IMG/VR virus record: IMGVR_UViG_3300037508_000348 | Source: an uncultured virus (IMG/VR IMGVR_UViG_3300037508_000348) | Taxonomy: Duplodnaviria; Heunggongvirae; Uroviricota; Caudoviricetes | Reading direction: 5' to 3' (one strand) | DNA length: 20,000 bases | Shown here: positions 1,928 through 20,000 of the stretch, one piece after another | Layout: every line of letters starts with the position of its first letter | Numbering within the stretch: the stretch's first letter is position 1 | Notes under the pieces: generated by a model | Told to the model about the DNA's origin: nothing | Databases searched by the model: none | What the model saw: the letters and a program-made list of their open reading frames with translations, nothing else | Program-made: the position numbers and the translations under genes

Positions 1928-1964
1928 GAAGTGCTACACCACCAATCTGAGAAGGAGATTGAAG

Positions 1965-2465
1965 ATGCAAAACGATACTATCATCATAGAAAATGCAGCG
2001 CAACTACTTGACTATGACCCAGAAACGGGGGAGATGGTGTGGAAAGTCCGCAAAAAAGGAAGTCGCGGGCGGGGTAAAAAAGCCGGCTACGCCAGTCACG
2101 GCTATATCGTAGTAGGGTTAACCGGGAAGCGCTTATTCGGGCATAGGATAGCGTGGTTTTTACATTATGGGAATTTACCAGAACAGCAGATAGACCACAA
2201 AGACAGAGATCGCTCAAACAATAAAATATACAACCTGCGAATAGCCGAGAATAATTGGTTCGATAATCATCAGAATAGGTCGCTACCGTCAAACAACACT
2301 TCCGGTGTAATAGGCGTAAAATGGCATAAAGTTAGTGGCAAATGGGTGGCGCAGATACAGGTCAATAAGAAACAGATACATTTAGGGCTTTTTGAATCTT
2401 TTGAAGACGCAGTTGCCGCACGTAGAGCCGCTGAGTTAAAATATTTTACGTTTGCTAATCCATAG
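1965..2465 (+). CDS. Free-standing HNH homing endonuclease with C-terminal AP2 DNA-binding domain
   Basis: HRIAW...IDHKDRDRSNNKIYNLR (HNH); NTSGVIGV.W....KW.AQI......HLG.F...E.A..AR (AP2). ATG 1965 preferred over TTG 1959 because AAGGAG lies at 1952-1957. Confidence 0.92.
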   Translation: MQNDTIIIENAAQLLDYDPETGEMVWKVRKKGSRGRGKKAGYASHGYIVVGLTGKRLFGHRIAWFLHYGNLPEQQIDHKDRDRSNNKIYNLRIAENNWFDNHQNRSLPSNNTSGVIGVKWHKVSGKWVAQIQVNKKQIHLGLFESFEDAVAARRAAELKYFTFANP

Positions 2466-2477
2466 AGAATAGACACC

Positions 2478-3674
2478 ATGCCTAAGATGCAAAATCGGGT
2501 CCAAGAGACCACTACTACTGGCGGTACCGGCACGATTACTTTGGCTGGTGCTGTTACTGGGTACATTACATTCGCTGCGGGATTCACTACGGGCGATGTG
2601 CTCTTTTACACTATAGATAACGGCATTGGCGAGTGGGAAATTGGCATAGGTACACTGGTTACTACAGGTACACTATCTCGTACTACGGTCATCGCCTCGT
2701 CTAATAGCGGTGCGCTAGTCAACTTTTCTTCTGGTACTAAACGAGTATTTTGCTCCGCGCCCACGCGCTCACTGGTGCCCGACCAAGACAGCAAAAGCGG
2801 CTACGTCCTCACTACAGACGGCACGAACCCAAGCTGGACTCAGACGCTAAACAGCGTCAACATCGGCAACACAACCGCAGGCACAGGGGCCTTTACTACT
2901 CTTTCGGCTTCTTCTACCGTCTCCGGCACGGGCTTCAGTAACTATCTCGCTTCTCCTCCCGCCATTGGCGGCTCATCCCCTGCGGCGGGTAACTTCACTA
3001 ATCTTGGCTATACCGGCACACTCACGGGCGGCACGGGTGTTATCAATATCGGATCGGGGCAGATAGTTAAGAATGCGTCCGGCGTAGTCACCATAGGCAG
3101 CGCCATCAGCCTCGACCCCACGACAGCCAATGCGCTGGTGGTAAATAGCAGTGGGAATGTGGGGATTGGTACTGCAAGTTCTTCAGGTAGATTTACATTA
3201 AAAGGCTCAGGGGCGACAGCGGGGACTTCTTCTATATACGTTACAAATAGTACTCCCGTATATACATTTGTAGTTAATGATGATGGTTCATTTTATACAG
3301 GTGCATCACCAGCGGGTGCTCCATATAACGTAACAACAGGCACAGGCGCAAATTTAGTTGTTACATCCGCTGGACAATTGCAAAGGTCTACATCATCACT
3401 TAAATATAAGACAGATGTACAAGATGCTACCCATGGGCTTGCTGATGCTTTGAAGCTAAGAGCAGTTACATACAAAGGCAAGAATGATGGAAGCACTGTT
3501 TTTGGCGGCTTAATTGCCGAAGAAGTGCATGAGGCTGGTTTAACAGAGTTTGTGCAATATGCTGAAGATGGTTCTCCTGATGCGTTGAGCTATGGAAATA
3601 TGGTTTCCCTTGCATTCAAAGCCATCCAAGAACTCCACGCCGAAATCGAATCACTCAAACAGAGGACACACTAA
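2478..3674 (+). CDS. Tail fibre with C-terminal peptidase S74 intramolecular chaperone
   Basis: N-terminal RVQETTTTGGTG...WEIG.G...LSR..V..SSN anchor; GNVGIGT motif; TSSLKYK...GLIAEEV...KAIQEL chaperone. Confidence 0.85.
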   Translation: MPKMQNRVQETTTTGGTGTITLAGAVTGYITFAAGFTTGDVLFYTIDNGIGEWEIGIGTLVTTGTLSRTTVIASSNSGALVNFSSGTKRVFCSAPTRSLVPDQDSKSGYVLTTDGTNPSWTQTLNSVNIGNTTAGTGAFTTLSASSTVSGTGFSNYLASPPAIGGSSPAAGNFTNLGYTGTLTGGTGVINIGSGQIVKNASGVVTIGSAISLDPTTANALVVNSSGNVGIGTASSSGRFTLKGSGATAGTSSIYVTNSTPVYTFVVNDDGSFYTGASPAGAPYNVTTGTGANLVVTSAGQLQRSTSSLKYKTDVQDATHGLADALKLRAVTYKGKNDGSTVFGGLIAEEVHEAGLTEFVQYAEDGSPDALSYGNMVSLAFKAIQELHAEIESLKQRTH

Positions 3675-5004: not shown

Positions 5005-6318
5005 GTGTTAGGCTTCTCGGCTATTGCAGACTCGCCCATTGCGGCACCACGCATTGATGCCTATTTACTCCTAACTTCTCAGAGTCTTAGCCTCTCTCTT
5101 TCTTCGGCTGCAGTCACGGCTGCAGCTAACTACGCGCTCTCTTCTCAGTCACTTGTAACGACACTCAACAGCCCCACTATTCAGGCAGGGGCACAATACG
5201 CGCTTGACTCGCAGACACTCACTACTACACTCAACGCTCCCTCTGTTACTGCCGCCAGTGCAGTCACTCTCACTTCTCAATCTCTCACGCTGACGCTCAA
5301 TAGCGTCACGGCTACGGCCATCACCTACGTACCCCTCGTAGGCCAAACACTCAACTTGACGCTCAACAGCGTTACGGTTACAGCAGATGCGCTCTATACC
5401 CTTGATTCTCAGAGCCTTACGACAACGCTCAGCAGTGTCGTCATTGAAGTTCAGCCGCCGACGTTTGACTCCCAGAGCCTTACCAGCACACTCAATAGCG
5501 TAGCGCTAGAGACCAACAATGACATAACCCTCACGGGGCAGAATCTAATTGCCTCCCTAAACTCCGTTGCTCTATCTGTTGGCCAGACGGTTGATCTTAC
5601 GGGGCAAACCCTCACCACTACGCTCAATTCGGTTACTGTCTCTGCGGCAGCGGGTATAACACCCACGGGGCTGTCCTTCTATGGATATGTTTCGCCGGTT
5701 ATTCTGAGTGTAGGGGCTACGGTCCCCACTACGGGGTTGATGCTCACATCGACGCTCAATAGTTTCAGAAAGTTCTGGGTAGATATTTATACGCCGCAGA
5801 CACCTGAGATTCCCTATGATGACTGCTCGATTGGCTCAACGCCGATATGCTACACCCCACCAGAGCCTACAACGCAGGCGACGATTCAGGGAAATTGGAA
5901 CGAGATAACGCTTGATGCGGTGGTAGATGGTCAGGACTGCTCGATTGGGTCACAGCCTATCTGTGTGGGAGTCAACTATACGAATACCGAATTGCTGGTG
6001 ACAGCAGTGAATGGTGGTGGAGCCATCACGGGAATTTCGATAAAGCACACCTCGCTCTACGATGAAGTCCCGCCCAACCCAGCCATTGTGGTAGCAACAA
6101 ACGGTGGAGCAAATGCCACGTTCAATATACAATACTCCCAAAATGTAGCGATCAGCGTAGCGATTGCCAACGGCGGCTCTGGGTATGTAGTAGGTGATAC
6201 ACTCTTCGTATTAGGAGGAATCGGATACAATCTACCCTCTACTGGAAAATATCCTGCCGCATTGTGGTCCAACATTACAACCGCCCAGACCAGCAACTGG
6301 GCCAATATACCGACATAA
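5005..6318 (+). CDS. Virion structural protein with about 11 tandem 22-aa repeats
   Basis: GTG start; repeats L-x-[SG]-Q-x-L-x-x-T-L-N-S-V; C-terminal W..I...Q..NW..I. Confidence 0.75.
   Translation: MLGFSAIADSPIAAPRIDAYLLLTSQSLSLSLSSAAVTAAANYALSSQSLVTTLNSPTIQAGAQYALDSQTLTTTLNAPSVTAASAVTLTSQSLTLTLNSVTATAITYVPLVGQTLNLTLNSVTVTADALYTLDSQSLTTTLSSVVIEVQPPTFDSQSLTSTLNSVALETNNDITLTGQNLIASLNSVALSVGQTVDLTGQTLTTTLNSVTVSAAAGITPTGLSFYGYVSPVILSVGATVPTTGLMLTSTLNSFRKFWVDIYTPQTPEIPYDDCSIGSTPICYTPPEPTTQATIQGNWNEITLDAVVDGQDCSIGSQPICVGVNYTNTELLVTAVNGGGAITGISIKHTSLYDEVPPNPAIVVATNGGANATFNIQYSQNVAISVAIANGGSGYVVGDTLFVLGGIGYNLPSTGKYPAALWSNITTAQTSNWANIPT
5071..5763 (+). repeat. Coding tandem repeat, 22-aa (66-nt) period, about 11 copies
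   Basis: e.g. LTSQSLTLTLNSVTATAITYVP / LVGQTLNLTLNSVTVTADALYT / LTGQTLTTTLNSVTVSAAAGIT. Confidence 0.85.
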
Positions 6319-6330
6319 AGGTGCGTAACC

Positions 6331-8256
6331 ATGCCTGCAACATATTCATCTAACCTCAGACTTGAACTCATCGGCCCCGGTGAGCAGGCCAACACATGGG
6401 GCAACACCACCAGCAACAATTTAGGCACGCTGATGGAAAGCGCTGTTGCGGGGCGTATAGAGCTCTCTTCGGGTTGGGTAGCTAACTCGCTTACACTGAC
6501 GGCGTTCAATGGTGCTAACGATCAGTCGAGGCAGATGTGTCTGGTGGTCCCGGCTATTACGATCAGCGCGAACTCAAACATCGTGGTTCCCGCCAGTGCG
6601 GTTACAGCCTCATCGGGCAAGCTCTATACCGTCATCAACCGATCAACGTCCTATGCGGTCACGATCAAACTCCCATCAACTACGGGCATAACGATTCCAG
6701 CCAATACAACGAAGACGGTTATCTATAACGGCACGGACTTTCAAGAAACCATTACTGCGCTGGACTTCCTTACACTGACAGGCACCCCCACGGTCAACGC
6801 ACATGCCGTAAACAAAGGCTATGTAGATGGGAAATTTTTCATCAATGCAGGGGCCAATACCGTCACGGGCAACACTACATTTACAGGCACCGTCACTCTG
6901 CCCGTAGCGACACCCACAGGCAACCAAGCCACCTCGTACAACTACGTCAATAGCAACTATTTGTGGAAAGCGGCGGGTGAAAGCACTCAGACCATGATCC
7001 CTAGGCTGAAATTAACCCAAGCGGCTGTTGATAATGATGATGTAATCACTAAAGGATACGCAGACAGTAACTTTGTAGGGCTCACCACTGTCCAGACGAT
7101 TTCTGGCACTAAGACATTTTCTACAAATGTCTCCCTAAGTGGCTCCGCGCAGCTTATTCTCCCCAACGCTCCCTTGAGTGGCACTCAGGCTACCAATAAG
7201 AGCTATGTAGATGGAGAGATAGCGGCGGCGTCATCTCTAGCCGCGAGCACTTTTGTCCCCCAGACGAGGACCATTACAGTAGGCACGGGGCTTCAGGTCA
7301 ATGGCACGGCGAGTGCGGATTTGAGTGGAAATATCAATCTTCAGCTTGTTGGAGGAGGTACGGTCACTTCGGTTACGGCAACTTCTCCTTTGACCGCTAC
7401 AGGCACTACGGCGGTTAATTTGTCCATGAATATAGCCAGCACTTCACAAAACGGCTATTTAACCTCCACGGACTGGAACACGTTTAACGGCAAATGCAAT
7501 GCTAATGGTTCCAACGCTTCGGGTACTTGGGCCATCAGTATTGCAGGCAATGCCGCTACCGCTACGAATGCAACAAACGCTACGAATGCAACAACAGCCA
7601 CGACAGCTACAAACGCCACGAATGCTACGAATGCGACAAACGCTACGAATGCAAATGCTTTGGGCGGTGTAGCCGCTAGCGGTTACGTACTAAAAACCGG
7701 CTCCACGATGACTGGGGCGTTAAATGTTCAGAATAGCGGTTCTCCATCAGGGTATGTTAGTGTAGACACTGTCTTTAATGGCTCTGACTATTTCCCCGCT
7801 ATTTTGTCTGTTAATACAGCCGCTTCTACATATAGGCCATTAGTATTAGCGCAATTAAGCACTTTAGGCACTTATGAAGTTAGATTAGCCATAGGCACAG
7901 GGGGCGCTGTAACGATATCTAACTTAGCTGCTGGCGGTACTGTCTCTGCAGGGGCGGGCACAGGCACACTAACGGTATCCTCAGACCAAAACTTAAAAAT
8001 AGCTGACGGTTTCATAGAAGATGGCCTCTCTAAAATAGATGCGCTGCAACCTCGTTACTTTTATTGGAAAGATGAAGAAGGTAATGCTAACCTTGAAGAA
8101 GGAAGGCAACTAGGTTTTTATGCTCAAGAGGTGCAAGCAGTTAGCCAAGAAGCCTCTCCAACGGGGCAAGGCATATACGATAGAGCGATAATTGCTATGC
8201 TGGTTAAAGCCGTGCAAGAACTCAAAACCGAAGTAGAAGCTCTTAAAGGAGCATAA
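6331..8256 (+). CDS. Tail fibre with C-terminal peptidase S74 chaperone
   Basis: N-terminal L.LELI..GEQ..TWG.TT..NL anchor; four xKxYVD-like stalk motifs; ATN repeats; SSDQNLK...LGFYAQEV...LVKAVQEL. Confidence 0.85.
   Translation: MPATYSSNLRLELIGPGEQANTWGNTTSNNLGTLMESAVAGRIELSSGWVANSLTLTAFNGANDQSRQMCLVVPAITISANSNIVVPASAVTASSGKLYTVINRSTSYAVTIKLPSTTGITIPANTTKTVIYNGTDFQETITALDFLTLTGTPTVNAHAVNKGYVDGKFFINAGANTVTGNTTFTGTVTLPVATPTGNQATSYNYVNSNYLWKAAGESTQTMIPRLKLTQAAVDNDDVITKGYADSNFVGLTTVQTISGTKTFSTNVSLSGSAQLILPNAPLSGTQATNKSYVDGEIAAASSLAASTFVPQTRTITVGTGLQVNGTASADLSGNINLQLVGGGTVTSVTATSPLTATGTTAVNLSMNIASTSQNGYLTSTDWNTFNGKCNANGSNASGTWAISIAGNAATATNATNATNATTATTATNATNATNATNATNANALGGVAASGYVLKTGSTMTGALNVQNSGSPSGYVSVDTVFNGSDYFPAILSVNTAASTYRPLVLAQLSTLGTYEVRLAIGTGGAVTISNLAAGGTVSAGAGTGTLTVSSDQNLKIADGFIEDGLSKIDALQPRYFYWKDEEGNANLEEGRQLGFYAQEVQAVSQEASPTGQGIYDRAIIAMLVKAVQELKTEVEALKGA
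7555..7659 (+). repeat. Ala-Thr-Asn/Thr tripeptide repeat (9-nt period)
   Basis: ATATNATNATNATTATTATNATNATNATNATNANA; gctacgaatgc recurs. Confidence 0.85.
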
Positions 8257-8263
8257 CCGTGCC

Positions 8264-8986
8264 CTATTCGCTAGCCGCTTTACGCTTAGCCCATACCTCT
8301 TTCATAATAGCTGAGGTCTTAGCCCTAGCCTCTGGAGTACGCTTTGCGGCATTGCGTTTTTCGCGTATAGTTGGGTCGGTATTCAAATGCTTGTGCGTTT
8401 CACGCATTGGGTTATTTGGGTCTAACAGGCGCTGTCTACGTTTTTCTTTTGTCTCTTCCGAGTGTATAGGTCTACCTATCTTTTCTGCTATCCTAGCCGC
8501 TCTGTACTCGGGATCGGCCCATTTGTCCTTTATCTTTTTTCGCACTTCAGCCCTCTTAGCAGGGTTGTTTTCCCCAGAGTATCTAGCGACTATATGGGGC
8601 GCATTCATTCGTTCGATGGCCTTTGCTTTTATTTCTGGGTTGTGCATTGGGTTATTTGCCTTCATTCGTTCTCTAGTTTTTTCCCTAGCGGATTCGGGCA
8701 TTGTTTCTAGGCCCTCGCCACCTTTACGCATATTTGCTAAAGTGCCTGTACCTTGGGTTATGCGCCCATATTTTTCTATCAACGCTGCTTCCAGAGTTTG
8801 GGCCTCGCCTAAAGATGTTACTTTTATCACTTCTACGATAACATTATGAGCGCCTACCTCCTTAACCAGAGTTTTACAAAATGCACTCCTAGGGCTGGGG
8901 CCGGTCGGGTCAGTACGCCGTGTGTCTTTAGTGGCTCCAACGTAAAAGGGTACGCCATTAGGGTGCTTCCAAATGTAGACGAACAT
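8264..8986 (-). CDS. Free-standing GIY-YIG-type homing endonuclease with NUMOD3-like basic repeats
   Basis: FVY...FYVG, E..LI..YG....GTG.L.N...GGEG; HSEETKEK and NNPM repeats. Start moved to ATG 8986 (AGGAG at 8997-8993). Confidence 0.8.
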   Translation of the reverse strand: MFVYIWKHPNGVPFYVGATKDTRRTDPTGPSPRSAFCKTLVKEVGAHNVIVEVIKVTSLGEAQTLEAALIEKYGRITQGTGTLANMRKGGEGLETMPESAREKTRERMKANNPMHNPEIKAKAIERMNAPHIVARYSGENNPAKRAEVRKKIKDKWADPEYRAARIAEKIGRPIHSEETKEKRRQRLLDPNNPMRETHKHLNTDPTIREKRNAAKRTPEARAKTSAIMKEVWAKRKAASE

Positions 8987-9015
8987 CGTAGTCTCCTGAT
9001 TAACGCCAGAGCAAG

Positions 9016-9044
9016 AGTGTAACAAAATGCTTCAGAAATTGCAA
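9016..9044 (-). promoter_or_regulatory. Sigma70-like promoter for the antisense endonuclease
   Basis: Minus strand reads TTGCAA (9044-9039), 17 nt, TACACT (9021-9016) with extended TG at 9024-9023; about 30 nt above the start codon. Confidence 0.65.
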
Positions 9045-11405
9045 ATGAGGCCCGGAGTTAATAGGGAGTCAACATCTCTTGCTAACGAAGGGGGGTGGTA
9101 TGCCTGCGATAAGATTCGCTTCCGTTCAGGTCAGCCGGAAAACATCGGTGGGTGGACGTTTGCTTCAGATGATGTATATCTAGGGGCTTGTCGTGATCTG
9201 ACTGAGTGGGAGTCTCTAGCCAATTCCGGGGTGTCTTTCACTCTGCTGGGCATGGGGACTAACCTCAAATACTACATCGACTCCAACCAAGTCTTTTACG
9301 ATATCACACCCATAGCAGACTCTTTTGCTGCGGGCACGGTGTCCCTTGATACCATCTATTCAACGCTCGCTTCCTCGATCAGTGCTACTAGCACGGACAT
9401 TACTCTTGTCTCGGGTACGTCTTTTCAAAGAGCTTATCCTTTGGTCATCACCATTGGTTCAGAAGATATCTTTGTTCAGAATGTCAGTGGCAATACTCTC
9501 ACTGGCTGCTCACGAGGCTATAACGGCACTACAGCGGCGGCGTACAATTCAGGCGTTGCTGTCACCAGTCGATGGTTGATCCTTGCGGCTACGGCTCATG
9601 GCTCGGGTACAAATAACTTCGTCACTATAGGTGGGGCGACTGCGTTTGGGCCTTACACTGCCGCGCAGTTAAACAAGAACTTTCAGATCAAAGCGTTTAC
9701 TACCAATTACGTAGCCGTAGATGTTGGGGTACTGGCAACGTCGGCTTTAACGGGGCAGGGCGGTGCGGCTATCACCGCAGAGTTTGAGATCGACACGGGG
9801 GCTGAGTTTTCTACCCAAGGCGCAGGGTGGGGTGCGGGGGTTTGGAATGCTATGGTCTACAACGCGGGGCTCAGCACGGTAGCGGAAGAAGTAGATAACA
9901 CTGAGACGACAATCACTCTAGCCGATGCTTCGACCTTTCCGACTTCGGGGTATGCACTGCTCGAATCTGAAATTATTCAATACTCCGGTAAAAGTGGCAA
10001 TGACCTGACCGGGTGCATACGCGGAGCGCCTTCAAGCACAGCGACCTTCCACCAGAACGGTACGACGATAAGAGGCTTGGTCTATCAGTCAACAACACCT
10101 AGTGCAACGAATCCTGTTCGTGGTTGGAACACCCCCGCAGAGTTCGGCATCAACATTCCCATGCGCCTATGGAGCTCTGACTCGTTTGGTCAAGACTTGG
10201 TTTATAACATTCGCAACGGCGGAGTGTACTACTGGGCGGCAGCGGCCAATCTTGATCCTACGGGCGAGGTTACGCTGCATAGTGGTGTGAACATTATTGA
10301 TCTTCCCGGCGCGGATAGTTGGTCTCCTGAAGTGGGTGCCTATGCCTTTGTTTCTGAAGAACGACATATTGTGGTGCTAGGCACCAACGACCCCACAGCC
10401 ACGGAACCTAGCGCTCAAGACCCATTGTTGCTTCGCTGGTGCGAACAGGAAGACCCGTTGATCTGGGAGCCAACACCTGTCAACACGGCTGGGTTTCAAC
10501 GCATGGCCTATGGCAGTAAGCTGATTACGGCTGAAAAGACTCGACAGGAAGTGCTGATTTGGAGCGATAGCGCGCTGTATTCCATGCGCTATCTAGGCCC
10601 GCCCTACACCTTTGGGTTCAACACGATCTCAAACGAAGTCACTCTCGCCGGTCCTAATGCAGTCGTCACTGCCAGCAACATCACGTACTGGATGGGCTTG
10701 GAAAAATTCTATGTGTATTCTGGGCGTGTTGACACGCTCCCCTGCAGTCTGCGGCAGTACGTTTTTGATGATATTAACGAGTCGCAGTTGGATCAGGTCT
10801 ATGCGGGCACCAACGAAAAGTTTAATGAGGTATGGTGGTTCTACCCTTCGGCTTCCACTATCGGCGTGGACAATCCCACAAACGACCGCTATGTAGTCTA
10901 CAACTACCTTGAGAAAGTCTGGTACTACGGTCAAATGCCGCGCACCGCTTGGTACGATTCACATATCAGAGCTTTTCCGCTGGCGACCAGTGGAGGCAGA
11001 CTTTTGCTTCATGAGAACGGTGTAGATGACTACACCACCAACCCTCCAACACCCGTTGACTCCTTTATTGAATCTTCGGATTTCGACATCGGTGAGGGTG
11101 ACAACTTCTCGTTCATAAAGCGCATCATACCGGACGTAGACTTTATTGGGTCACTAACAAACACACCTTCTGTGACGATGACGGTATCGACGAGGAATTT
11201 CCCCGGTCAAGGCACTTTCACCTCCACAGATAGCGAAATAGTCTCCAGTAACAGAGTGTCACTGCAAGTGTACGATTACACGCACCAAGAATGGATTCGC
11301 CTGAGAGGAAGGCAGGTAGCCTTTAAGATTAGCAATAACTCTTTGGGTGTAAAATGGCAGTTGGGAGTCCCAAGAATCCAAGTGCAGCCAGACGGACGTA
11401 GATAA
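9027..11405 (+). CDS. Tail hub/nozzle (P22 gp10 / tail tubular B-like) protein
   Basis: 792 aa, beta-propeller-like C-terminal half (DPLLLRW..QE, EVWWFYP, RYVVYNY.E.VWY.G...RTAW.D, RLRGRQ...W.LG.PR....PDGRR); position between fibres and internal proteins. Confidence 0.72.
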   Translation: MLQKLQMRPGVNRESTSLANEGGWYACDKIRFRSGQPENIGGWTFASDDVYLGACRDLTEWESLANSGVSFTLLGMGTNLKYYIDSNQVFYDITPIADSFAAGTVSLDTIYSTLASSISATSTDITLVSGTSFQRAYPLVITIGSEDIFVQNVSGNTLTGCSRGYNGTTAAAYNSGVAVTSRWLILAATAHGSGTNNFVTIGGATAFGPYTAAQLNKNFQIKAFTTNYVAVDVGVLATSALTGQGGAAITAEFEIDTGAEFSTQGAGWGAGVWNAMVYNAGLSTVAEEVDNTETTITLADASTFPTSGYALLESEIIQYSGKSGNDLTGCIRGAPSSTATFHQNGTTIRGLVYQSTTPSATNPVRGWNTPAEFGINIPMRLWSSDSFGQDLVYNIRNGGVYYWAAAANLDPTGEVTLHSGVNIIDLPGADSWSPEVGAYAFVSEERHIVVLGTNDPTATEPSAQDPLLLRWCEQEDPLIWEPTPVNTAGFQRMAYGSKLITAEKTRQEVLIWSDSALYSMRYLGPPYTFGFNTISNEVTLAGPNAVVTASNITYWMGLEKFYVYSGRVDTLPCSLRQYVFDDINESQLDQVYAGTNEKFNEVWWFYPSASTIGVDNPTNDRYVVYNYLEKVWYYGQMPRTAWYDSHIRAFPLATSGGRLLLHENGVDDYTTNPPTPVDSFIESSDFDIGEGDNFSFIKRIIPDVDFIGSLTNTPSVTMTVSTRNFPGQGTFTSTDSEIVSSNRVSLQVYDYTHQEWIRLRGRQVAFKISNNSLGVKWQLGVPRIQVQPDGRR

Positions 11406-13501: not shown

Positions 13502-14362
13502 ATGTCGCTATTTGGAACATTAACCGCTATTGGGGGCGCTATTGCTTCTGCTGCTTCGGCTATCGGGGCACCTGTCGCTGGTCTTGCTTCTGCTATGGGG
13601 GCTTCTACAGCCACAGCGGGTACTATCGGATCAGTAGCAGGTTCAGCGGCATTAGGCTCGGCTTCAGGTGCTGCACTCACGGCTGCTACGGGGGGCGATC
13701 CGGGGCAAGGGGCTCTTTTGGGGGCACTCACTGGTGGCGCTACAGCGGGTCTTGGGGCATTGGGCGGCGCAGCCGCACCTGCGGGGGGTATAACAGGTCA
13801 AGCGGGTCAAGCGGCCACTGCAGCGCAACCGGCAGTCAGTGAGATCACTAAGGGAGTAGCCACTCCAGCATTTCAACAGGCAGCGGGCGGTATTCCCGGC
13901 GCGGCTCAAGTCGCAGCGGCAGAGCCTTCTGTTAGTGCTATAACTCAGGGTGTAGCTACTCCAGCATTCCAACAAGCATCTCAAACAGCGGCGGCTAATG
14001 CTGCAGGCAGCGGAGGTATTGGTTCTCTTCTTAGCAATAACACCGTTAAAGGTGTCGGCATGGACCTCGCCAAAGAAGGGATCGGAACGGGAATGGATAA
14101 TATGCAACAAGCGCAGCGATCAGAAGAAGGGAGAAAACTTGCTCAGCAGGCAAGCATGGACTTTCAAGCGGAGCGAGATCAGCAGAGTGCTGATATACGA
14201 AACAAAGTGGGTAAGACTTTTAGCGGTATGAACTTTGCTCAGGGCGGAGAAGTCGGTTTGAAAGAGGGACAGTTCATTATTCCAGCCGATGTTGTCAGTG
14301 CGTTGGGCAATGGGTCCACTAAAGCGGGTGCTAACTTCTTGGATGAGTTCTTCGGTGTATGA
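13502..14362 (+). CDS. Gly/Ala-rich internal virion (ejection-like) protein
   Basis: Glycine-zipper-like N-terminus; FAQGG; C-terminal EGQFIIPADVVSALGNGS..AG. Confidence 0.6.
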   Translation: MSLFGTLTAIGGAIASAASAIGAPVAGLASAMGASTATAGTIGSVAGSAALGSASGAALTAATGGDPGQGALLGALTGGATAGLGALGGAAAPAGGITGQAGQAATAAQPAVSEITKGVATPAFQQAAGGIPGAAQVAAAEPSVSAITQGVATPAFQQASQTAAANAAGSGGIGSLLSNNTVKGVGMDLAKEGIGTGMDNMQQAQRSEEGRKLAQQASMDFQAERDQQSADIRNKVGKTFSGMNFAQGGEVGLKEGQFIIPADVVSALGNGSTKAGANFLDEFFGV

Positions 14363-14772
14363 GTTGGAAAGCTAAAGTCGTCCCTGCTGACTTTGCAAAC
14401 GTAGTGTGGGATGAGGTTGAAGGTTTCCTAGAGAGGTCCGTTCAGTATTCTTATGGGGAATTGACGCTAGAGGAGATTAAAATGCGTGTGCTAGATGGTA
14501 CATGGCTTTTGATTGTGGCTATTGACGATTCTGATATAATTCGTGGAGCTTCTACTGTTACATTTTTTAACAGAACAGACAATCGCGTTGCTTATGTAAC
14601 CAGCATTGGAGGGCGGCTTTTAGCTAACCTCGACACTTTTTCGCAATACTGTGACATTCTCAGACAGCATGGTGCTACTTGTATTGAAGGTGCTGTAAGA
14701 GATTCCCTGATGCGCTTATGGGCTAGGCTTGGTGCCCATAAAAAAACCACCATTGTACAGATAGCGCTATAA
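14359..14772 (+). CDS. GNAT-fold-like phage protein (position equivalent to P22 gp14)
   Basis: 137 aa; W..V...L, L.V......GA, ..IGG, G...IEG..R....RLW..LG pattern; ATGA coupling. Confidence 0.5.
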   Translation: MSWKAKVVPADFANVVWDEVEGFLERSVQYSYGELTLEEIKMRVLDGTWLLIVAIDDSDIIRGASTVTFFNRTDNRVAYVTSIGGRLLANLDTFSQYCDILRQHGATCIEGAVRDSLMRLWARLGAHKKTTIVQIAL

Positions 14773-14790: not shown

Positions 14791-17262
14791 ATGGGCGGTC
14801 CTGCTATGTCTCCGGGTTCGAGAACCGAAACTACGGAAAAACCAAGTCCCTATCAAGAATGGTTGTTCAACGTCATGTCCAACCCCGGCTCCGCCCCTTC
14901 TACGGGGTTACGGGTGTCAGCACGAGATGCAGCCCTTGGAGAGCAAGTTAACCTAGGCAATAAAAGTGCTATAAATAAAATGTGGGGGCGTAATGTTACC
15001 CCCGCTGATTTTGCTGCAATGCAGCGAGGCAGCACCGACTTTTATACCGGAAGAAAAGCCGCACAAGGCGGGCTGATGGCTCTGCGGGGGTACTCTTCGG
15101 GCGGTTCTCCAAAAGCAACAAATGCGCCCAAAAAGGACGCACCCAAAAAGAATGCCCCTGAAAAACAAAAACCCCCTGCTAAACCCAAGCTAGCCCCTCC
15201 TCCTAAAAATGAAACCGCGCAGCAGCGTACTGATCGGTTGATGGCCTTTGAAAATGCGGGCGGAAAGCTAAACAAGCAGCAGAAAGACTACGTATCAAAT
15301 TACACTGAGTACGCCGGTAAAGGCTATCCCATAAACCCAAAGACGGGTATGCCCACTCCACCCAAACTTCCTTCCAACGCTACCAAAAAGCAGAAAGAAG
15401 AGGCGATGAAAAAGTTCACTGAGGCTACTCAGCTCGACGTGAATGATAAAGGCAAGTTAACTCCCAGTACGGGGGGCGATCCAAACAAAACAAGCTATAC
15501 TATGGCCGATGCCATGTTTGGGCAAACGGCTGGGTTTGACCCCGCGCTGTTAAGTGAAAACCCCGAAGTGCGCGATGCGGCTATGAAAAAGCACGGGATG
15601 ACTTCTCCCTCTGGCGGCATAACCAACGAGTTTGGGCGAAAGGCCATTGATATGGCCCAGAATATGAAAATGCCCGGTGAGTTTGGGCAAGCCTCTGATA
15701 TGTATCGAACGGCTGGGGCTGGATTAGAGAGTCTGGCCGGATACAAACCGCAAGATGTCTCCTACCAAAATGCTTCGGCGGAAAGAGCCAGTGCAGAAAA
15801 AGCCGCCGCCGCACAGATGGGCAGTATTGCTAATGTCAGTGCGGAACGCGCAGCGGCAGAAAGAGCTCAAGCCTCTCAAATGGCGGCTATTGCTGATGTT
15901 AATGCCCAGCAAGTAGACCTCGGGCAGTATAACGTAACCGCCTCGCAAATGCAGCGCCCAGAGGATGTAACCGCTAGAGAACTGCAGCGGTATCAGATGG
16001 ACAGCGCAAACCCCGTCACCACCCAAGCACTCGAAGCCTATCAAATGGCGGGGCCGGGGTCTTGGACCGATGAGGGTGTGTCTAGCAAATACATGAGCCC
16101 CTACATGCAGGGAGTCATTGACATCTCAAAGCGCGAAGCGGAGAGAGACTATACCAAGCAGATGAATGCGCTGAATGCCAAGGCTGTATCGGCTGGAGCG
16201 TTTGGTGGGTCTAGGCAGGCTTTGGAGCGCTCTGAAGCACAGCGTAATTACAACGAGCAGTTACAAGACATCCAAACGCGAGGTCTGCAGCAAGCCTACG
16301 AATCAGGTCGTTCTCAGTACACTGGGGAATTAAGCATGTCGCAGCAGGCGGCTCTGCAGAATCTGCAGTCTAAACTCTCCACACAGTCGCAGTCTTCGCA
16401 GCAAGAGTTGCAAGCGATGCTCTCTAACCAGAACATTGACTACCAGACCAAAGTGCAGAACTTACAGGCCATGCTGGGGGTACAGTCTCAAGAAGCACAG
16501 CAGATGCTCAATGCGTCACTGGCTAACCAACAGGCTGAAATGGTAACTAGCCAAACCAATGCACAACTAGCACAGCAGGCAGCGCTGGCTAACCAAGGGG
16601 TAAATTCTCAAGGTGCTCTGGCTAATCAAGCAGCGGCGTTACAAGCGGCTCTAGCTAATCAACAAACACAGTTTGGCACAGGGCAGTTCAATGCTGGGGC
16701 GCAGAATCAAGCCTCTCTTGCTAATGCTCAGTTGGGAACGCAGGCCAATCTAGCCAACCAACGGGCGGCACTTGAAGCGGCTCTGGCTAATCAGCAGACT
16801 CAGTTCGGTGTGGGCTCTTTGAATGCAAATCTGGCGAATCAAACCAACCTGCAGAATGCTTCGTTGGGAACACAGGCGGCTCTTCAAAATGCTCAGTTGG
16901 GCACAAACGTCAACCTCGCCAACTCTCAATACGGCCTCAGCGCTGCTTTGGCTAACCAACAAGCGGGGCTTCAAGGAAACCAACAGAACATCGCAGCCTA
17001 TGGTGCTATGGGTAATATGGCTACTGGGCTGGGCTCTATCGGTACTAACATCGGTAACTTCAACCAGCAGCAGCTTGGCAACATGGCGCAGATTTACAAC
17101 ACTACACAGGGTTTACAGCAAAGCTGGATGGACCAGCAGCAGAAAAATGCCATCAACCAGTACCAAGCACCGTATAAGGCGGCGGGTGCTGTACCGGGAA
17201 TGCTGAATATAACTGGAGCGGGCGGTGGCGGTGCCAGAGTCACTGAACAACAAAATTACTAA
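14791..17262 (+). CDS. Large Ala/Gln/Asn-rich internal (DNA ejection) protein with mirror repeats
   Basis: GAGG SD; central YMSPY...AGAFGGSRQA core flanked by pentad and hendecad repeats. Confidence 0.7.
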   Translation: MGGPAMSPGSRTETTEKPSPYQEWLFNVMSNPGSAPSTGLRVSARDAALGEQVNLGNKSAINKMWGRNVTPADFAAMQRGSTDFYTGRKAAQGGLMALRGYSSGGSPKATNAPKKDAPKKNAPEKQKPPAKPKLAPPPKNETAQQRTDRLMAFENAGGKLNKQQKDYVSNYTEYAGKGYPINPKTGMPTPPKLPSNATKKQKEEAMKKFTEATQLDVNDKGKLTPSTGGDPNKTSYTMADAMFGQTAGFDPALLSENPEVRDAAMKKHGMTSPSGGITNEFGRKAIDMAQNMKMPGEFGQASDMYRTAGAGLESLAGYKPQDVSYQNASAERASAEKAAAAQMGSIANVSAERAAAERAQASQMAAIADVNAQQVDLGQYNVTASQMQRPEDVTARELQRYQMDSANPVTTQALEAYQMAGPGSWTDEGVSSKYMSPYMQGVIDISKREAERDYTKQMNALNAKAVSAGAFGGSRQALERSEAQRNYNEQLQDIQTRGLQQAYESGRSQYTGELSMSQQAALQNLQSKLSTQSQSSQQELQAMLSNQNIDYQTKVQNLQAMLGVQSQEAQQMLNASLANQQAEMVTSQTNAQLAQQAALANQGVNSQGALANQAAALQAALANQQTQFGTGQFNAGAQNQASLANAQLGTQANLANQRAALEAALANQQTQFGVGSLNANLANQTNLQNASLGTQAALQNAQLGTNVNLANSQYGLSAALANQQAGLQGNQQNIAAYGAMGNMATGLGSIGTNIGNFNQQQLGNMAQIYNTTQGLQQSWMDQQQKNAINQYQAPYKAAGAVPGMLNITGAGGGGARVTEQQNY
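15742..16062 (+). repeat. 20 short units of 5-7 aa (ASAER/VTASQ/MxxxxD types)
   Basis: Manual parsing from YKPQD to MAGPGS, 107 aa. Confidence 0.7.
16324..16983 (+). repeat. 20 uninterrupted 11-aa (hendecad) units
   Basis: Asn at position 2 in 17 of 20 units (ANQAAALQAAL, ANQQTQFGTGQ...); 220 aa. Confidence 0.85.
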
Positions 17263-17272
17263 GGAGTAATTC

Positions 17273-19291
17273 ATGACTATAAATGCCAACATTGCAAACA
17301 GTGACTCTGGTAAACCGGCTCAGTTTGTCAACAGTATTTATGAAACGCTGAAAGGGGATGTGAATCGCACTAACCAGCTAATGCAACAAGGCCCTAGCGC
17401 GGGTTTGGCATGGCTTGGAGCCGCCGCAGCTTCCAGAGCGCAAGATCAGGCGAAGCGTGAACAACAATCACAGCAAGCGCAGCAGATGGGACAAAGCCCT
17501 CAGCCTACAGTAGCACAACAGCTTCAAGCAGCAGCGATGCAAGGTGGGATCATGGGCCAGTTACCTAGCAATATCGCTATGGCGCAGCAGCCAGAGCAAG
17601 GGCCTCAAGTGGGTGGTGGACTCGGAGCTCTTCCCGTTGACCCTCGTACTCTGCCGCAAGAGATGGCGGGTGGTGGGCTCGTTGCTCTAGCCGAAGGGGG
17701 GTTCCTTGACTACGCCTATGATGGCGGTGAAGGCTATGCCGAGGGCGGTGAGGTAAGAAGGTTTGCGGCGGGTGATAGTCTTAGAATACATGAGTATCCG
17801 TGGCGGGTTTTTGGGGAAAATGTACCTCCTATTGTGGTTGGGGATAACTTAGAAGACGAAGGCGCTTTCTGGGAAGACTTACCCGATATAGCTAAACTTG
17901 AAGCGCAAGATGCAAGAGAGTATTTTGACCCTATTGACAAAGCTCGTAGCTATATTGATGAGGGTGTCGATTTTGCTAAAACTCTTCCCAGTGAGACATC
18001 TAAGCTGAATGAATACCTTGGAGGGAAAATAGCGGATAAAGCGGCGGAAGCTAAAGAAAGATGGTCTGCGCGACTAGCGCCGTGGGCTAACAAAGTAGCT
18101 GAAATAGAAGCTCGTAGAGGGGAGCCTAGAGAAAGTCCATTAAAGCATGAAGCAGGTGGTCGTAATGGTGAAGTCCCTGCGGGTCAAGAGTCTATCAGAA
18201 ACCCCAAACCGCAAGTAGCAAAAGAAGCTACTAAAGTAGATAAGCAGTTCAAGAGTGGACAGAGAGACGACAACCATCTTGTTTCCGATGCCCAAACGCC
18301 TGCGGCTTCGGCTCAACCGCAAGGCCAAACTCTTGATGAGCTAGAGAAAGCATATACAGCGGCAGCTAATGAATTTGGTCAAGGTTCTCCGCAAGCATTG
18401 GACGTATTAGGCAAAATATCCGCTATTAGGAATGCCGCCGCTGCAAGAGAACAGGGAACAACAAATGTTCCAACTGCACAAACTGTATCTCAATCTGGAG
18501 GGCTCCCCGCTATTCAAGGACAAAGAGCAGCAGCGTCTGATACTGGAAGCAGCTTTGAAGAAAATGCTAGACGAATGAACGAGCTCTATGGTGCTACACC
18601 TCAGATGTCACCTGAAGAACGTGCATGGCGAAAAGAGCAGATCGAATCTTCTAGGGCTGATAAATGGCTGCAGACGCTGACGGCTATGGCGGGTGGTACT
18701 TTTGCTAGTGGAGAAACTACTTGGCCTGCGGCGATAGGAAAAGGCGCTCTGTTTGGGTTGTCTACTTATCGTCAAGGTGCTCAAGCAGAAGCCGAAGCTG
18801 AACTGGGTCTAATCCAAGCCGACGCTGCCTATAAAGCCGCCGAAGCTGCCCAACGCAAAGAAGCCGTTAAAGACGTATCAAGCATCATGCAGAACACGGC
18901 TAAACTGGGTAGTGCGTCGGATATTGCTACTGCTAAAGCGCGGGCTCAAGCCCTTAGCGACGAACTTAAAAGGGAGCAAAAAGAGAGTCAATTTGTACGC
19001 GGGGAAGAAGGTAAATATGATAGAGCTTATATTATGTCAGGAGGGAGAGAAGCCGCAGAACGCAATGATTTGCTTCGACAAGCAAATGGCGAAATAGCAA
19101 AAAGGCAACAAGACATAGACTACATATCAGCCTCTCCTGAAGTAAAAGCCCGTATAGAAGCAGAAATTTATGCCCGCTATGGCGTGACTCCTCCCGGTCT
19201 AGGTGGCGGTCAAGGGCTTGGGGGCGGTATGGGCATGGGGAACAGGCCAATTGTGCGAAGAGATCGTATAATACCCGCTGCTCAACAATAA
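17273..19291 (+). CDS. Internal virion (ejection-like) protein, 672 aa
   Basis: AAGGAG SD; Q/A-rich, clustered AxGG tags, Gly-rich hydrophobic segment followed by coiled coil. Confidence 0.6.
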   Translation: MTINANIANSDSGKPAQFVNSIYETLKGDVNRTNQLMQQGPSAGLAWLGAAAASRAQDQAKREQQSQQAQQMGQSPQPTVAQQLQAAAMQGGIMGQLPSNIAMAQQPEQGPQVGGGLGALPVDPRTLPQEMAGGGLVALAEGGFLDYAYDGGEGYAEGGEVRRFAAGDSLRIHEYPWRVFGENVPPIVVGDNLEDEGAFWEDLPDIAKLEAQDAREYFDPIDKARSYIDEGVDFAKTLPSETSKLNEYLGGKIADKAAEAKERWSARLAPWANKVAEIEARRGEPRESPLKHEAGGRNGEVPAGQESIRNPKPQVAKEATKVDKQFKSGQRDDNHLVSDAQTPAASAQPQGQTLDELEKAYTAAANEFGQGSPQALDVLGKISAIRNAAAAREQGTTNVPTAQTVSQSGGLPAIQGQRAAASDTGSSFEENARRMNELYGATPQMSPEERAWRKEQIESSRADKWLQTLTAMAGGTFASGETTWPAAIGKGALFGLSTYRQGAQAEAEAELGLIQADAAYKAAEAAQRKEAVKDVSSIMQNTAKLGSASDIATAKARAQALSDELKREQKESQFVRGEEGKYDRAYIMSGGREAAERNDLLRQANGEIAKRQQDIDYISASPEVKARIEAEIYARYGVTPPGLGGGQGLGGGMGMGNRPIVRRDRIIPAAQQ

Positions 19292-19306: not shown

Positions 19307-20000
19307 ATGGCTAGAGACACAGGCTTAGGCGCTCTTTTTACTCCTTCTTATAGAACGGGCGATCCTGAAATGGACGCTCTCTTCGGCCTGATACGAGAAC
19401 AGCAAGAGCTACCTGAACTCAAACGGCCAGAAACCCGCTCCGCTCCTAGAGGTGCTAGGGAGCAAGGGGAAGCGCGAGGCGGAAGAGGTGTTAGCAACAA
19501 TGCCCAAGTAGCATACAACTTCTATATAAATAAAGGCGTTCCTCCCCATATAGCTGCTGGATGGGTTGGTAGTATGATGCAGGAGTCTGGGCCTAACCTA
19601 GACCCAAATGCTTATAACCCCGGTGGGGCATACGGTATCATGCAGGCTATGGGTCCACGTAAAGAAGCGATGCTTCGCGCTGGTGGTAAGGGTGATCTTA
19701 TAAAACAGCTTGAGTTCTCATGGGCCGAAATGAATGGTCCTGAACGGAAAGCGCTTGAGCGAATGCTCCAAGCAAAAACTCCAGCGGAAGCGGCTATTGC
19801 GCACCGTAAGTATTATGAGCGCCCCGGCGAAGCTGAAGCACGGGATGACAAACGTATCCAATATGCCAATCAGCTATTTTCTGGTGGGTATCAACCACAG
19901 CAAGAACAGGCTCAACCACAGGGGCAATTCGCTCGTAGCCCAGAGTTCCAGCCTCATGTAGTCGGCGCTGGCGTAAGTAAACACCCTATTAGTCAGACTG
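19307..20000 (+). CDS. Virion-associated muralytic protein (phage tail lysozyme-like domain), 3'-truncated by the window; not in ORF track
   Basis: Open from ATG 19307 to the end; AAGWVGSMMQES..LDP.A.N...AYGIMQ...QLEF...E...AKTPAEAA.....YERP...R..YA matches the Phage_lysozyme2 pattern as I recall it. Confidence 0.82.
   Translation, partial: MARDTGLGALFTPSYRTGDPEMDALFGLIREQQELPELKRPETRSAPRGAREQGEARGGRGVSNNAQVAYNFYINKGVPPHIAAGWVGSMMQESGPNLDPNAYNPGGAYGIMQAMGPRKEAMLRAGGKGDLIKQLEFSWAEMNGPERKALERMLQAKTPAEAAIAHRKYYERPGEAEARDDKRIQYANQLFSGGYQPQQEQAQPQGQFARSPEFQPHVVGAGVSKHPISQT

What the first reader, a model, noticed from the sequence alone, without database searches (positions are those of the whole stretch)
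15742..16983. Mirror-coded repeat arms in the 823-aa ejection protein: a hairpin ruler or conduit of about 33 nm
Seen: the YMSPY...AFGGSR core is flanked by 20 units of 5-7 aa (15742-16062) and 20 hendecads (16324-16983). Numbered outward from the core, unit types match. Units 2 and 5 (LEAYQ, LQRYQ) match QNLQSKL.. and QNLQAML... Units 4, 7, 11, 15 (MDSANP, MQRPED, MAAIAD, MGSIAN) match SNQNIDY, ANQQAEM, ANQQTQF, ANQQTQF. Units 8, 12, 16 (VTASQ, AQASQ, AAAAQ) match TNA, FNA, LNA. Units 10 and 14 (VNAQQ, VSAER) match ANQAAALQAAL and ANQRAALEAAL. Units 13, 17, 18 (AAAER, ASAEK, ASAER) match NAQLGT, NASLGT, NAQLGT. The single 7-mer (unit 9) matches the atypical ANQGVNSQGAL. Established geometry: 5 extended residues and 11 helical residues each span about 16.5 A, so 107 extended aa and 220 helical aa both span roughly 33-35 nm. 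Inference: the chain folds back as an antiparallel strand-on-helix hairpin, and duplications on one arm are compensated on the other. This could set the length of an envelope-spanning DNA ejection tube. I know of no description of this code, but cannot check the literature.
Basis: partly seen in the sequence, partly recalled or inferred. Interest (0 to 1): 0.9.

Follow-up and report, generated by a model that had tools for sequence, protein, structure and literature searches.

The report
Length-matched paired arms in ejection protein
A phage DNA-ejection protein carries two repeat regions on either side of a conserved centre that grow and shrink together, unit for unit and in mirror order, across its relatives, which points to a long, length-adjustable two-stranded stalk of a kind not described before.

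Summary
The 823-aa ORF (14791-17262, +) has a 107-aa N-arm, an 87-aa core and a C-arm of exactly 20 hendecads. All three anchors were found in 125 of 255 stored homologues, and 123 were kept. In these the N-arm is 36-193 aa and the C-arm 67-386 aa, with r = 0.995 and slope 2.06. In 46 phylogenetically independent pairs, r = 0.986. Insertions and deletions sit at mirror positions measured from the core. This supports antiparallel pairing with one 5-6-residue unit per hendecad. It refutes a fold-back of the C-arm. The protein is the first gene of a three-gene ejection cassette. It is related to phrog_4287 and to the putative outer-membrane channel protein of LUZ24-like phages. The tube or ruler role is inferred. 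Arm length varies fivefold among relatives and tracks no neighbouring gene.

The parts
14791..17262 (+). 823-aa ORF: first protein of a three-gene ejection cassette (the position held by gp14 in T7)
   Evidence: ORF list. 2373 homologues at E <= 0.001 among 8000 scored candidates. Conserved gene order in 24 related viral contigs.
14791..15639 (+). N-terminal region, aa 1-283
   Evidence: Not analysed in the window protein. In the homologue P0078, residues 20-200 of the equivalent region fold with pLDDT 87-97.
15640..15741 (+). N-anchor, aa 284-317: conserved helical segment at the far end of the N-arm
   Evidence: A profile HMM built from it finds it in 140 domains among the 255 stored proteins. 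Predicted helical, pLDDT about 76.
15742..16062 (+). N-arm, aa 318-424: 20 units of 5-7 residues, charged and Pro-containing
   Evidence: 12 D+E, 8 K+R, 4 Pro. Its length co-varies with the C-arm.
16063..16323 (+). Core, aa 425-511 (YMSPY...FGGSR): the most conserved part, probably a helical hairpin that forms the tip of the stalk
   Evidence: Found in 3266 representative clusters at E <= 0.001. Fixed 37-residue spacing between the two motifs. The P0078 model shows helix, turn at the Gly-rich motif, then helix, with pLDDT 75-81. In the window model, pLDDT is 84-92 but the helix is drawn as continuous.
16324..16983 (+). C-arm, aa 512-731: 20 hendecads, uncharged and Q/N/A/L-rich, with no Pro
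   Evidence: 77 Q+N, 44 Ala, 30 Leu, 0 Pro, 9 charged of 220. Family consensus has Asn at one position in 72% of hendecads. Predicted helical with breaks at Gly-rich units.
16951..17070 (+). C-anchor, aa 721-760: conserved segment that closes the C-arm and overlaps the last hendecad
   Evidence: Profile HMM hits. Nearly invariant columns in alignment A1.
14359..14772 (+). 137-aa gene directly upstream, conserved in position
   Evidence: A gene of 135-155 aa precedes the homologue in 22 of the 24 related contigs with anchors. No family match.
17273..19291 (+). 672-aa second cassette protein (the position held by gp15, the periplasmic-tunnel protein, in T7)
   Evidence: A protein of 430-630 aa follows the homologue in most related contigs. 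No family match.
19307..19999 (+). Start of the third cassette protein, with a phage tail lysozyme domain; it runs off the window
   Evidence: PF18013, E = 9.5e-25. In related contigs this gene encodes 2035-2480 aa.

Best explanation
The protein is a virion-borne DNA-ejection protein, the first of a three-gene ejection cassette. Its middle 414 residues form a long two-stranded hairpin stalk, with the conserved core as a helical-hairpin tip. From the tip the C-arm runs back as an alpha-helix of 20 hendecads, about 33 nm long. The N-arm runs alongside it in the opposite direction in a mostly extended conformation of about 3.1 A per residue, with one 5-6-residue unit facing each hendecad. Because the arms must stay in register, a duplication or deletion in one arm persists only with a matching change at the mirror position of the other. 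Observed quanta are 5 with 11, 16 with 33, 21 with 44 and 26 with 55 residues. Shown here, by comparison of sequences only: the length coupling, the mirror placement of changes and the in-register residue classes. Inferred: the conformation of each arm. Also inferred: that the once-per-hendecad Asn and the Ala-rich stripe of the helix hold the backbone of the N-arm. A further inference is that stalks associate through the second, Leu-rich stripe into a bundle or tube, with the charged N-arms acting as outer tape. In that picture the bundle or tube extends the ejection channel by an evolvable length.
For: Length coupling: all three anchors were found in 125 of 255 stored proteins, and 2 were set aside as mis-anchored. 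The remaining 123 give Pearson r = 0.995 and slope 2.055 +/- 0.019. In 118 of 123 the residual is within 11 aa (r = 0.9994, slope 2.059 +/- 0.007). The C-arm length is a whole number of hendecads in 112 of 123. Phylogenetic control: 46 independent pairs on a tree of anchors plus core give r(dN, dC) = 0.986 and slope 2.05. In 41 of the 44 pairs with |dN| >= 4, the C-arm changes in the same direction. Mirror placement: in 36 pairs, the distance of the indels from the core correlates between the arms (fractional r = 0.90; N x 2.06 against C r = 0.967). Pairs with two indels keep both size and order, for example 21 with 44 near the core and 10 with 22 far from it. Swapped modules: P0018 has the same totals as the window, but 21 aa moved from distal to proximal in the N-arm and 44 aa moved likewise in the C-arm. 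Matched internal repeat periods occur in 29 of the 36 homologues that have clear repeats in both arms; (21, 44) occurs 18 times. Residue classes in register under the mirror map: N-arm Pro faces C-arm Gly (peak 163 against mean 32.5; it persists beyond 25 residues from the core at 72 against 14, with 17 when the C-arm of another homologue is used). Aromatic residues face aromatic residues (74 against 17.6). Conformation: the N-arm has 4.2% Pro, 18% charged residues, hydropathy periods of 5.25 and 2.62, and none at 3.6. The C-arm has 0.0% Pro, 4% charged residues and two opposite apolar stripes on an 11/3 helix. AlphaFold2 draws the C-arm as a helix. Identity: window core to P0128 at E = 7e-23, and P0128 to phrog_4287 'DNA ejection protein' at 3.5e-17. 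The relative phiM5 gp27 matches phrog_4287 at 6.5e-91. Its record says it was detected in the particle proteome, and it is followed by three putative internal virion proteins. LUZ24 gp53 matches phrog_4287 at 2e-10. The same-sized protein at the same position in phage Pa223 is described as a gp14-like channel protein (passages). Gene order is conserved.
Against: There is no structural evidence for the pairing. Both AlphaFold2 monomer models (mean pLDDT 65.5 and 67.7, pTM 0.33 and 0.35) leave the N-arm at pLDDT 34-62. The window model draws aa 326-360 of the N-arm as a helix, and that stretch is Ala/Glu/Arg-rich, which favours a helix. The coupling is not absolute. Five of 123 homologues lie more than 11 aa off the line (P0014, P0034, P0061, P0119, P0129). 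Three of 44 independent pairs do not follow it. Contig L008 carries five 55-aa C-arm repeats against three 26-aa N-arm repeats. 130 of 255 stored proteins lacked my anchors and were not measured this way. The window protein itself gave no PHROG match at E <= 0.001, so the family link is indirect. It has no hydrophobic stretch of transmembrane strength: the highest 19-residue Kyte-Doolittle mean is 0.78. Arm length tracks no neighbouring gene's length, so there is no sign of what a ruler would measure. The in-register residue counts are not independent samples.
Confidence: 0.6

Rival explanations
1. Pairing is between subunits. The N-arm of one chain lies on the C-arm of a neighbour in a ring or bundle, so the hairpin is domain-swapped rather than intramolecular.
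For: Monomer models leave the N-arm disordered, as expected if it is ordered only in an assembly. The C-arm helix has two apolar stripes. In T7, an extended 'molecular tape' from gp16 stitches gp15 subunits into the tunnel (passages).
Against: Nothing here separates this from the intramolecular version. Both need the same antiparallel register measured from the core.
Confidence: 0.25
2. Two independent tethers. Both arms merely link the tip to a common base, so only their end-to-end lengths must match and they do not touch along the way.
For: This would give the total-length correlation. It would also fit the low confidence of AlphaFold2 for the N-arm.
Against: It does not predict mirror placement of indels (r = 0.90 and 0.967). 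It also does not predict swapped modules at matching distances, unit-type matching or in-register Pro/Gly and aromatic residues.
Confidence: 0.08
3. The conformations are reversed. The N-arm is an alpha-helix (1.5 A per residue) and the C-arm is a compact array of short helices rising about 0.75 A per residue, like a solenoid.
For: 5.29 residues x 1.5 A is about 8 A, near a helix-stacking distance. AlphaFold2 draws part of the N-arm as a helix. The C-arm has Gly-rich breaks about once per 44 aa.
Against: Most hendecads have no Gly or Pro (longest Pro/Gly-free run: median 42 residues), and the C-arm is drawn as long continuous helices. Changes of an odd number of hendecads (11, 33, 55, 77, 99 aa) are common, which a hairpin-based solenoid would not allow. 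The N-arm has 4.2% Pro and no 3.6-residue periodicity.
Confidence: 0.07
4. The C-arm folds back on itself and forms a three-helix bundle with a helical N-arm, which would explain the ratio of about 2.
For: The ratio of C-arm to N-arm length is close to 2.
Against: An N-arm indel at distance d from the core is matched by one contiguous C-arm indel of twice the size at about 2d. The bundle would need two indels, at d and at the far end. An example is P0058/P0082: residues 10-26 against 10-43. The slope of 2.059 +/- 0.007 differs from 2.0.
Confidence: 0.02
5. The match is chance, a product of the reader's free choice of unit boundaries in low-complexity sequence, or an assembly artefact.
For: The N-arm division was chosen by eye. 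Metagenome assemblies can collapse or expand repeats, and L008 may be such a case.
Against: 0 of 20000 permutations reach the observed match. The DNA repeats are diverged.
Confidence: 0.01

Closest known systems
phrog_4287 'DNA ejection protein': Sinorhizobium phage phiM5 gp27, LUZ24 gp53, and the gp56 of Pseudomonas phage Pa223 described as a gp14-like outer-membrane channel
   Same: Shared core domain. The link is indirect: window core to P0128, then P0128 to the family. phiM5 gp27 hits my core profile at 6e-19. These are the first gene of the ejection cassette and virion components (record note; mass spectrometry in the Pa223 preprint, passages).
   Different: Those proteins are 313-468 aa with only a rudimentary stalk. 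By eye, P0128 has about 16 and 33 residues. The window protein gave no direct PHROG match. It also has no strongly hydrophobic stretch, whereas Pa223 gp56 is reported with predicted membrane helices and an AlphaFold3 channel at nine copies. LUZ24 gp53 is only a weak match to my core profile (10.9 bits).
phiX174 H protein DNA-piloting tube
   Same: A helix built in part of hendecads and rich in amide side chains. It forms a wall-spanning DNA conduit: 18 of 23 inward-facing positions are N, Q or R (PMC7354561, passages). The C-arm is 37% Q+N family-wide.
   Different: No sequence similarity: no solved structure matches at E <= 1. The H tube is a 17-nm decamer of single helices with three hendecads, it has no partner strand and it carries ssDNA. 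The oligomeric state of the present protein is unknown.
T7 gp15:gp16-N periplasmic tunnel with its 'molecular tape'
   Same: An extended segment stitches helical subunits into a tunnel about 20 nm long that crosses the periplasm (PMC8954989, passages). The gene order of channel, tunnel and large lytic protein is the same.
   Different: In T7 the tape comes from a different protein. There are no repeats and no length coupling, and no homology was detected.
Antiparallel coiled-coil arms of SMC/Rad50, colicin Ia and the dynein stalk (recalled, not looked up here)
   Same: A tip domain flanked in sequence by two arms that run antiparallel and must match in length.
   Different: In those proteins both arms are helices and match residue for residue. 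Here the ratio is 2.06, with different repeat periods in the two arms.
Leash-in-groove hairpins of class I viral fusion proteins, and the Asn ladder of importin-alpha that holds an extended peptide (recalled, not looked up here)
   Same: An extended chain packs along a helical surface. A regular array of Asn side chains can hold a peptide backbone, which parallels the 72%-conserved Asn once per hendecad.
   Different: No homology, no repeats, no evolvable length, and the contact is not shown here.

Membership tests
phrog_4287 / LUZ24 gp53-like first ejection protein | Sequence match to the family profile | tested here: inconclusive
   The window protein has 0 PHROG families at E <= 0.001. The link is indirect: its core matches P0128 at E = 7e-23, and P0128, P0160, P0135, P0148 and P0173 (5 of 10 tested) match phrog_4287 at 3.5e-17 to 1.8e-10.
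phrog_4287 / LUZ24 gp53-like first ejection protein | First gene of a cassette, followed by a mid-sized protein and a large protein with a cell-wall hydrolase | tested here: met
   In the window, 14791-17262 is followed by a 672-aa protein and then a gene with PF18013 lysozyme. The same order occurs in related contigs, with a third gene of 2035-2480 aa. phiM5 gp27 is followed by three putative internal virion proteins.
phrog_4287 / LUZ24 gp53-like first ejection protein | Present in the virion and ejected | not testable with these tools
   Known only for relatives: the record note for phiM5 gp27 and mass spectrometry for Pa223 gp56 (passages).
phrog_4287 / LUZ24 gp53-like first ejection protein | Membrane-inserting segments, as predicted for Pa223 gp56 | tested here: not met
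   The highest 19-residue Kyte-Doolittle mean is 0.78 at aa 734. This is a crude test; the published prediction used another program.
Hendecad (11/3) alpha-helical repeat | Strict 11-residue period without indels | tested here: met
   20 units in the window. C-arm length is a whole number of hendecads in 112 of 123 homologues, offset by 3 in 10 and by 6 in 1.
Hendecad (11/3) alpha-helical repeat | Helical conformation with apolar stripes parallel to the axis | tested here: inconclusive
   AlphaFold2 draws a helix with pLDDT falling from 85 to 50. Hydropathy power is at periods 2.2, 2.75 and 5.5 and not at 3.67, which I read as two opposite stripes.
phiX174 H-type helical DNA tube | Oligomeric helical barrel with an amide-lined lumen | not testable with these tools
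   Only the composition fits. The complex tool never ran. There is no sequence match to solved structures.
Antiparallel coiled-coil arms (SMC, Rad50, colicin Ia type) | Two helical arms matched one residue to one residue | tested here: not met
   Slope 2.06. N-arm with 4.2% Pro and no 3.6-residue period.
Pentapeptide-repeat beta-helix (Pfam PF00805, name recalled) | Profile match of the 5-residue units | tested here: not met
   No such Pfam match at E <= 0.01. Units are 5-7 residues, with super-repeats of 11, 16, 21 and 26 residues.

The most novel reading that the evidence does not exclude
The two arms form a modular zipper in which each hendecad of a helix is read by one 5-6-residue unit of an extended strand. 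Nine or more such stalks assemble into a strapped helical tube that lengthens the ejection channel. Its length is tuned in steps of about 1.65 nm by paired duplications, to suit the host envelope or the capsid interior. This would be a natural, evolvable length-setting device built from two different repeat periods.
Probability: 0.3. Interest if true: 0.9.

Novelty: new variant of a known kind. Interest (0 to 1): 0.8.

Why it matters
Ejection proteins of short-tailed phages are poorly understood and largely invisible in virion maps. This finding gives sequence-only evidence for which residues of one such protein lie next to each other, over hundreds of residues and without a structure. The rule (5.29 residues per hendecad, mirror order) yields a testable model of a stalk 11 to 59 nm long in a family found in thousands of environmental phages. 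It also offers a natural experiment on compensated repeat evolution. If the stalk forms a tube, its step-wise adjustable length would bear on how phages bridge envelopes of different thickness. It could also guide the design of length-tunable protein rods.

Tried and rejected
1. AlphaFold2 monomer of window aa 284-775 with 124 aligned sequences and of the short-armed homologue P0078 with 123 sequences. The N-arm was not placed (pLDDT 34-62). No coordinates are returned, so no contact map could be read.

Nothing was folded.

3. Foldseek of the P0078 model against the PDB found no match at E <= 0.001. The best was E = 2.4, on long-helix proteins.

4. Sequence searches of solved structures with the window protein (E <= 1) and with P0128 (E <= 10) found nothing.

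5. The 'phages' collection gave no match with the window protein or the whole window. No genome is held for the window.

6. I looked for something the stalk length might measure. Neighbouring gene lengths in 24 related contigs do not track arm length.

7. I looked for a nucleic-acid explanation. There are 0 inverted repeats between the arm-coding regions.

8. I checked a suspected fusion of this family with the second cassette protein. P0135 against the 672-aa protein gives BLASTP E = 0.15, not significant.

9. A regex-anchored measure in other subfamilies worked for only 18 proteins. It gave Spearman 0.97 but slope 1.1, which is too crude to build on.

10. Literature: five full-text searches listed no paper describing coupled repeat arms in ejection proteins. 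Subscription journals are largely outside that library.

11. Earlier notes of this scan returned nothing.

12. The three-helix-bundle, solenoid, two-tether and chance readings were considered and are listed as rivals.
Full report
WHAT IS THERE. The window is a phage structural module. It holds an SU10-type adaptor (711-1352), tail-fibre genes with endosialidase-chaperone domains, an M15 peptidase and an HNH endonuclease. These are followed by three large genes at 14791-17262, 17273-19291 and from 19307, the last with a phage tail lysozyme domain. The finding lies in the first of these, an 823-aa ORF. The C-arm divides into 20 hendecads with no insertion or deletion, and all quoted units are present.

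IS THE MIRROR MATCH MORE THAN CHANCE? I compared the unit-to-unit similarity matrix of the N-arm (units numbered outward from the core) with that of the C-arm.
- In mirror order the Mantel correlation is 0.449, and none of 20000 label permutations reaches it.
- Shifts of one to three units give at most 0.16, and the parallel order gives -0.06.
- A shift of four units gives 0.31, because both arms carry a four-unit super-repeat (21 aa and 44 aa).
- The proximal units 1-9, which lie outside that duplication, still give 0.395, reached by 64 of 5000 permutations.

HOMOLOGUES. The protein has no Pfam or PHROG match of its own and no relative in the phage-record collection. It does have 2373 relatives at E <= 0.001 among the 8000 candidates scored in the metagenome protein collection. 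Its core alone is found in 3266 representative clusters. I built profile HMMs for three fixed landmarks:
- a conserved segment just before the N-arm;
- the core;
- a conserved segment just after the C-arm.
I then measured the two distances between them. Of 255 stored proteins, 125 had all three landmarks. I set two aside as mis-anchored (P0134, P0250).

In the remaining 123, the N-arm runs from 36 to 193 aa and the C-arm from 67 to 386 aa.
- Pearson r is 0.995, with slope 2.055 +/- 0.019.
- There are 52 distinct length pairs.
- 118 of 123 lie within 11 aa of the line (r = 0.9994).
- The C-arm is a whole number of hendecads in 112 of 123.
- There are 5.29 +/- 0.27 N-arm residues per hendecad.
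Five proteins are off the line: P0014, P0034, P0061, P0119 and P0129.

Relatedness does not explain this. On a tree built from the landmarks only, 46 pairs on non-overlapping paths give r(dN, dC) = 0.986 and slope 2.05. In 41 of the 44 pairs with |dN| >= 4, the C-arm changes in the same direction; two show no change and one goes the opposite way. The changes come in quanta: 5 with 11, 10 with 22, 16 with 33, 21 with 44 and 26 with 55.

An independent fetch of 80 viral contigs gave 24 genes with all landmarks. Of these, 22 follow the rule, including one at 173 and 353 aa. L065 was mis-anchored. L008 is a true exception, with three 26-aa N-arm repeats against five nearly identical 55-aa C-arm repeats on a 13-kb contig. 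The only relative longer than 1441 aa (P0256, 46% core identity) has 36-aa N-arm repeats and 66-aa C-arm repeats.

ORIENTATION AND REGISTER. I aligned the arms of 36 of the 46 independent pairs and located the indels by their distance from the core. I left out ten pairs:
- six with |dN| <= 6;
- three involving the outliers P0014, P0119 and P0129;
- P0096/P0167, for no good reason.
The positions correlate between the arms: fractional position r = 0.90, and N x 2.06 against C r = 0.967. Proximal goes with proximal (residues 10-26 with 10-43), middle with middle (37-60 with 62-106) and distal with distal (98-108 with 199-221). Pairs with two indels keep both size and order.

P0018 has the same totals as the window protein. 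It has nonetheless lost 21 aa distally and gained 21 aa proximally in the N-arm, and has done the same with 44 aa in the C-arm.

Under the mirror map, N-arm prolines face C-arm glycines and aromatic residues face aromatic residues. The peaks are sharp, persist far from the core, and are absent in parallel order or when the C-arm of another homologue is used. These counts are not independent samples.

Two conclusions follow. The arms correspond antiparallel, residue at distance d to residue at about 2.06 d. And each N-arm change is matched by one contiguous C-arm change of twice the size at twice the distance, so a C-arm that folds back on itself (a three-helix bundle) is excluded.

CONFORMATION (INFERRED). 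If the C-arm is an alpha-helix at 1.5 A per residue, the slope requires about 3.1 A per residue in the N-arm, which is an extended chain.

Family-wide, the C-arm has these features:
- 0.0% Pro, 4% charged residues and 37% Gln plus Asn;
- Asn at one hendecad position in 72% of units;
- two apolar stripes on opposite sides of an 11/3 helix, one Ala-rich next to the Asn and one Leu-rich.

The N-arm differs:
- 4.2% Pro and 18% charged residues;
- hydropathy periods of 5.25 and 2.62, and no 3.6-residue signal.

Frequent changes by an odd number of hendecads argue against a solenoid of helical hairpins.

I propose that the Asn ladder and the Ala stripe hold the backbone of the N-arm. The Leu stripe would then pack stalks together, with the charged N-arm as the solvent-facing tape of an otherwise uncharged helix.

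None of this is shown. AlphaFold2 gives mean pLDDT of 65.5 and 67.7. In the window model the core is confident (84-92), and the C-arm is helical with falling confidence. The N-arm is at pLDDT 34-62, and its Ala-rich distal part is drawn as a helix. In the short homologue the core appears as helix, turn at the Gly-rich motif, then a helix that runs on into the C-arm. That places the core at the tip of the hairpin. The complex predictor never ran. Foldseek and sequence searches of solved structures found nothing.

WHAT THE PROTEIN IS.
- Short relatives that share the core at up to 59% identity, such as P0128, match phrog_4287, 'DNA ejection protein'.
- Sinorhizobium phage phiM5 gp27 matches that family at 6.5e-91 and my core profile at 6e-19. 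Its record marks it as detected in the particle proteome, and it precedes three putative internal virion proteins.
- LUZ24 gp53 (313 aa) matches phrog_4287 at 2e-10, but only weakly matches my core profile.
- A preprint on the related phage Pa223 (passages read) describes the 313-aa protein at that position, gp56, as a gp14-like protein expected to perforate the outer membrane. It was found in virions by mass spectrometry, and AlphaFold3 modelled it as a hollow channel only at nine copies.
- In 24 related contigs the gene order is constant: a gene of about 137 aa, this gene, a protein of 430-630 aa, then a giant of 2035-2480 aa. This parallels the channel, tunnel and large lytic protein order of T7 (review passages).

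So the protein is best read as a much-elongated member of the first-ejection-protein family. It has no strongly hydrophobic stretch.

FUNCTION OF THE STALK (INFERRED, WEAKEST PART). The nearest working analogues are:
- the phiX174 H tube, a decameric helical conduit built partly of hendecads and lined with amide side chains (passages);
- the T7 tunnel, in which an extended tape from gp16 stitches gp15 helices together.
A strapped helical tube is therefore plausible.

A fixed 33-nm ruler is not supported. Arms range from 7 to 36 hendecads, close relatives differ twofold, and no neighbouring gene scales with them.

NOVELTY. Antiparallel arms of matched length around a tip domain are known for helix-on-helix stalks (SMC, Rad50, colicin Ia; recalled, not looked up). 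I found no description of two arms with different periods kept unit-for-unit in mirror register, nor of such coupling in ejection proteins, in five full-text searches. Subscription journals are mostly outside that library.

VERDICT. The extended-on-helix geometry is likely but unproven, and the tube or ruler role remains open.

Noticed in passing
window 1959-2465 (+): An HNH endonuclease with an AP2 DNA-binding domain sits inside the structural gene block (PF13392 at 2.8e-12; phrog_99 at 1.1e-64). It is probably a homing endonuclease.
   Followed up: no
window 2478-3674 and 6331-8256 (+): Two fibre or spike genes end in the endosialidase intramolecular-chaperone domain (PF13884; E = 8.3e-4 and 1.7e-8). 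This suggests two receptor-binding proteins. Relatives of the ejection protein are often mis-annotated as tailspikes, perhaps because some carry this same C-terminal domain (phiM5 gp27).
   Followed up: partly
window 19307-19999 (+, runs off the end); loci L001-L022: In related contigs, the third cassette gene, which starts with a tail lysozyme domain, encodes a giant of 2035-2480 aa. That is much larger than T7 gp16.
   Followed up: partly
proteins P0135, P0143 (about 800-840 aa): Some distant relatives carry the core near residue 100, followed by a long C-terminal extension. By eye the extension shares a few short collinear motifs with the window's 672-aa second cassette protein. BLASTP is not significant (E = 0.15), so a fusion of the first two cassette proteins is only a suspicion.
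   Followed up: partly
locus L008, ORF 6162-9380; proteins P0014, P0034, P0119, P0129: These homologues break the length rule. They may be uncompensated evolutionary intermediates or repeat mis-assemblies. L008 has five nearly identical 55-aa C-arm repeats against three N-arm repeats.
   Followed up: partly
protein P0078, residues 20-200 (equivalent to window aa 1-283): The N-terminal region of the family folds with high confidence in the homologue (pLDDT 87-97), but no similar solved fold was found. Its role is unknown.
   Followed up: no
18 proteins of other subfamilies: In short basal family members, the distances from the core to conserved N-side and C-side motifs also rise together (Spearman 0.97), but with slope near 1.1. 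This hints that the ancestral stalk may be helix-on-helix. The measure is based on crude regular expressions and only 18 proteins.
   Followed up: partly
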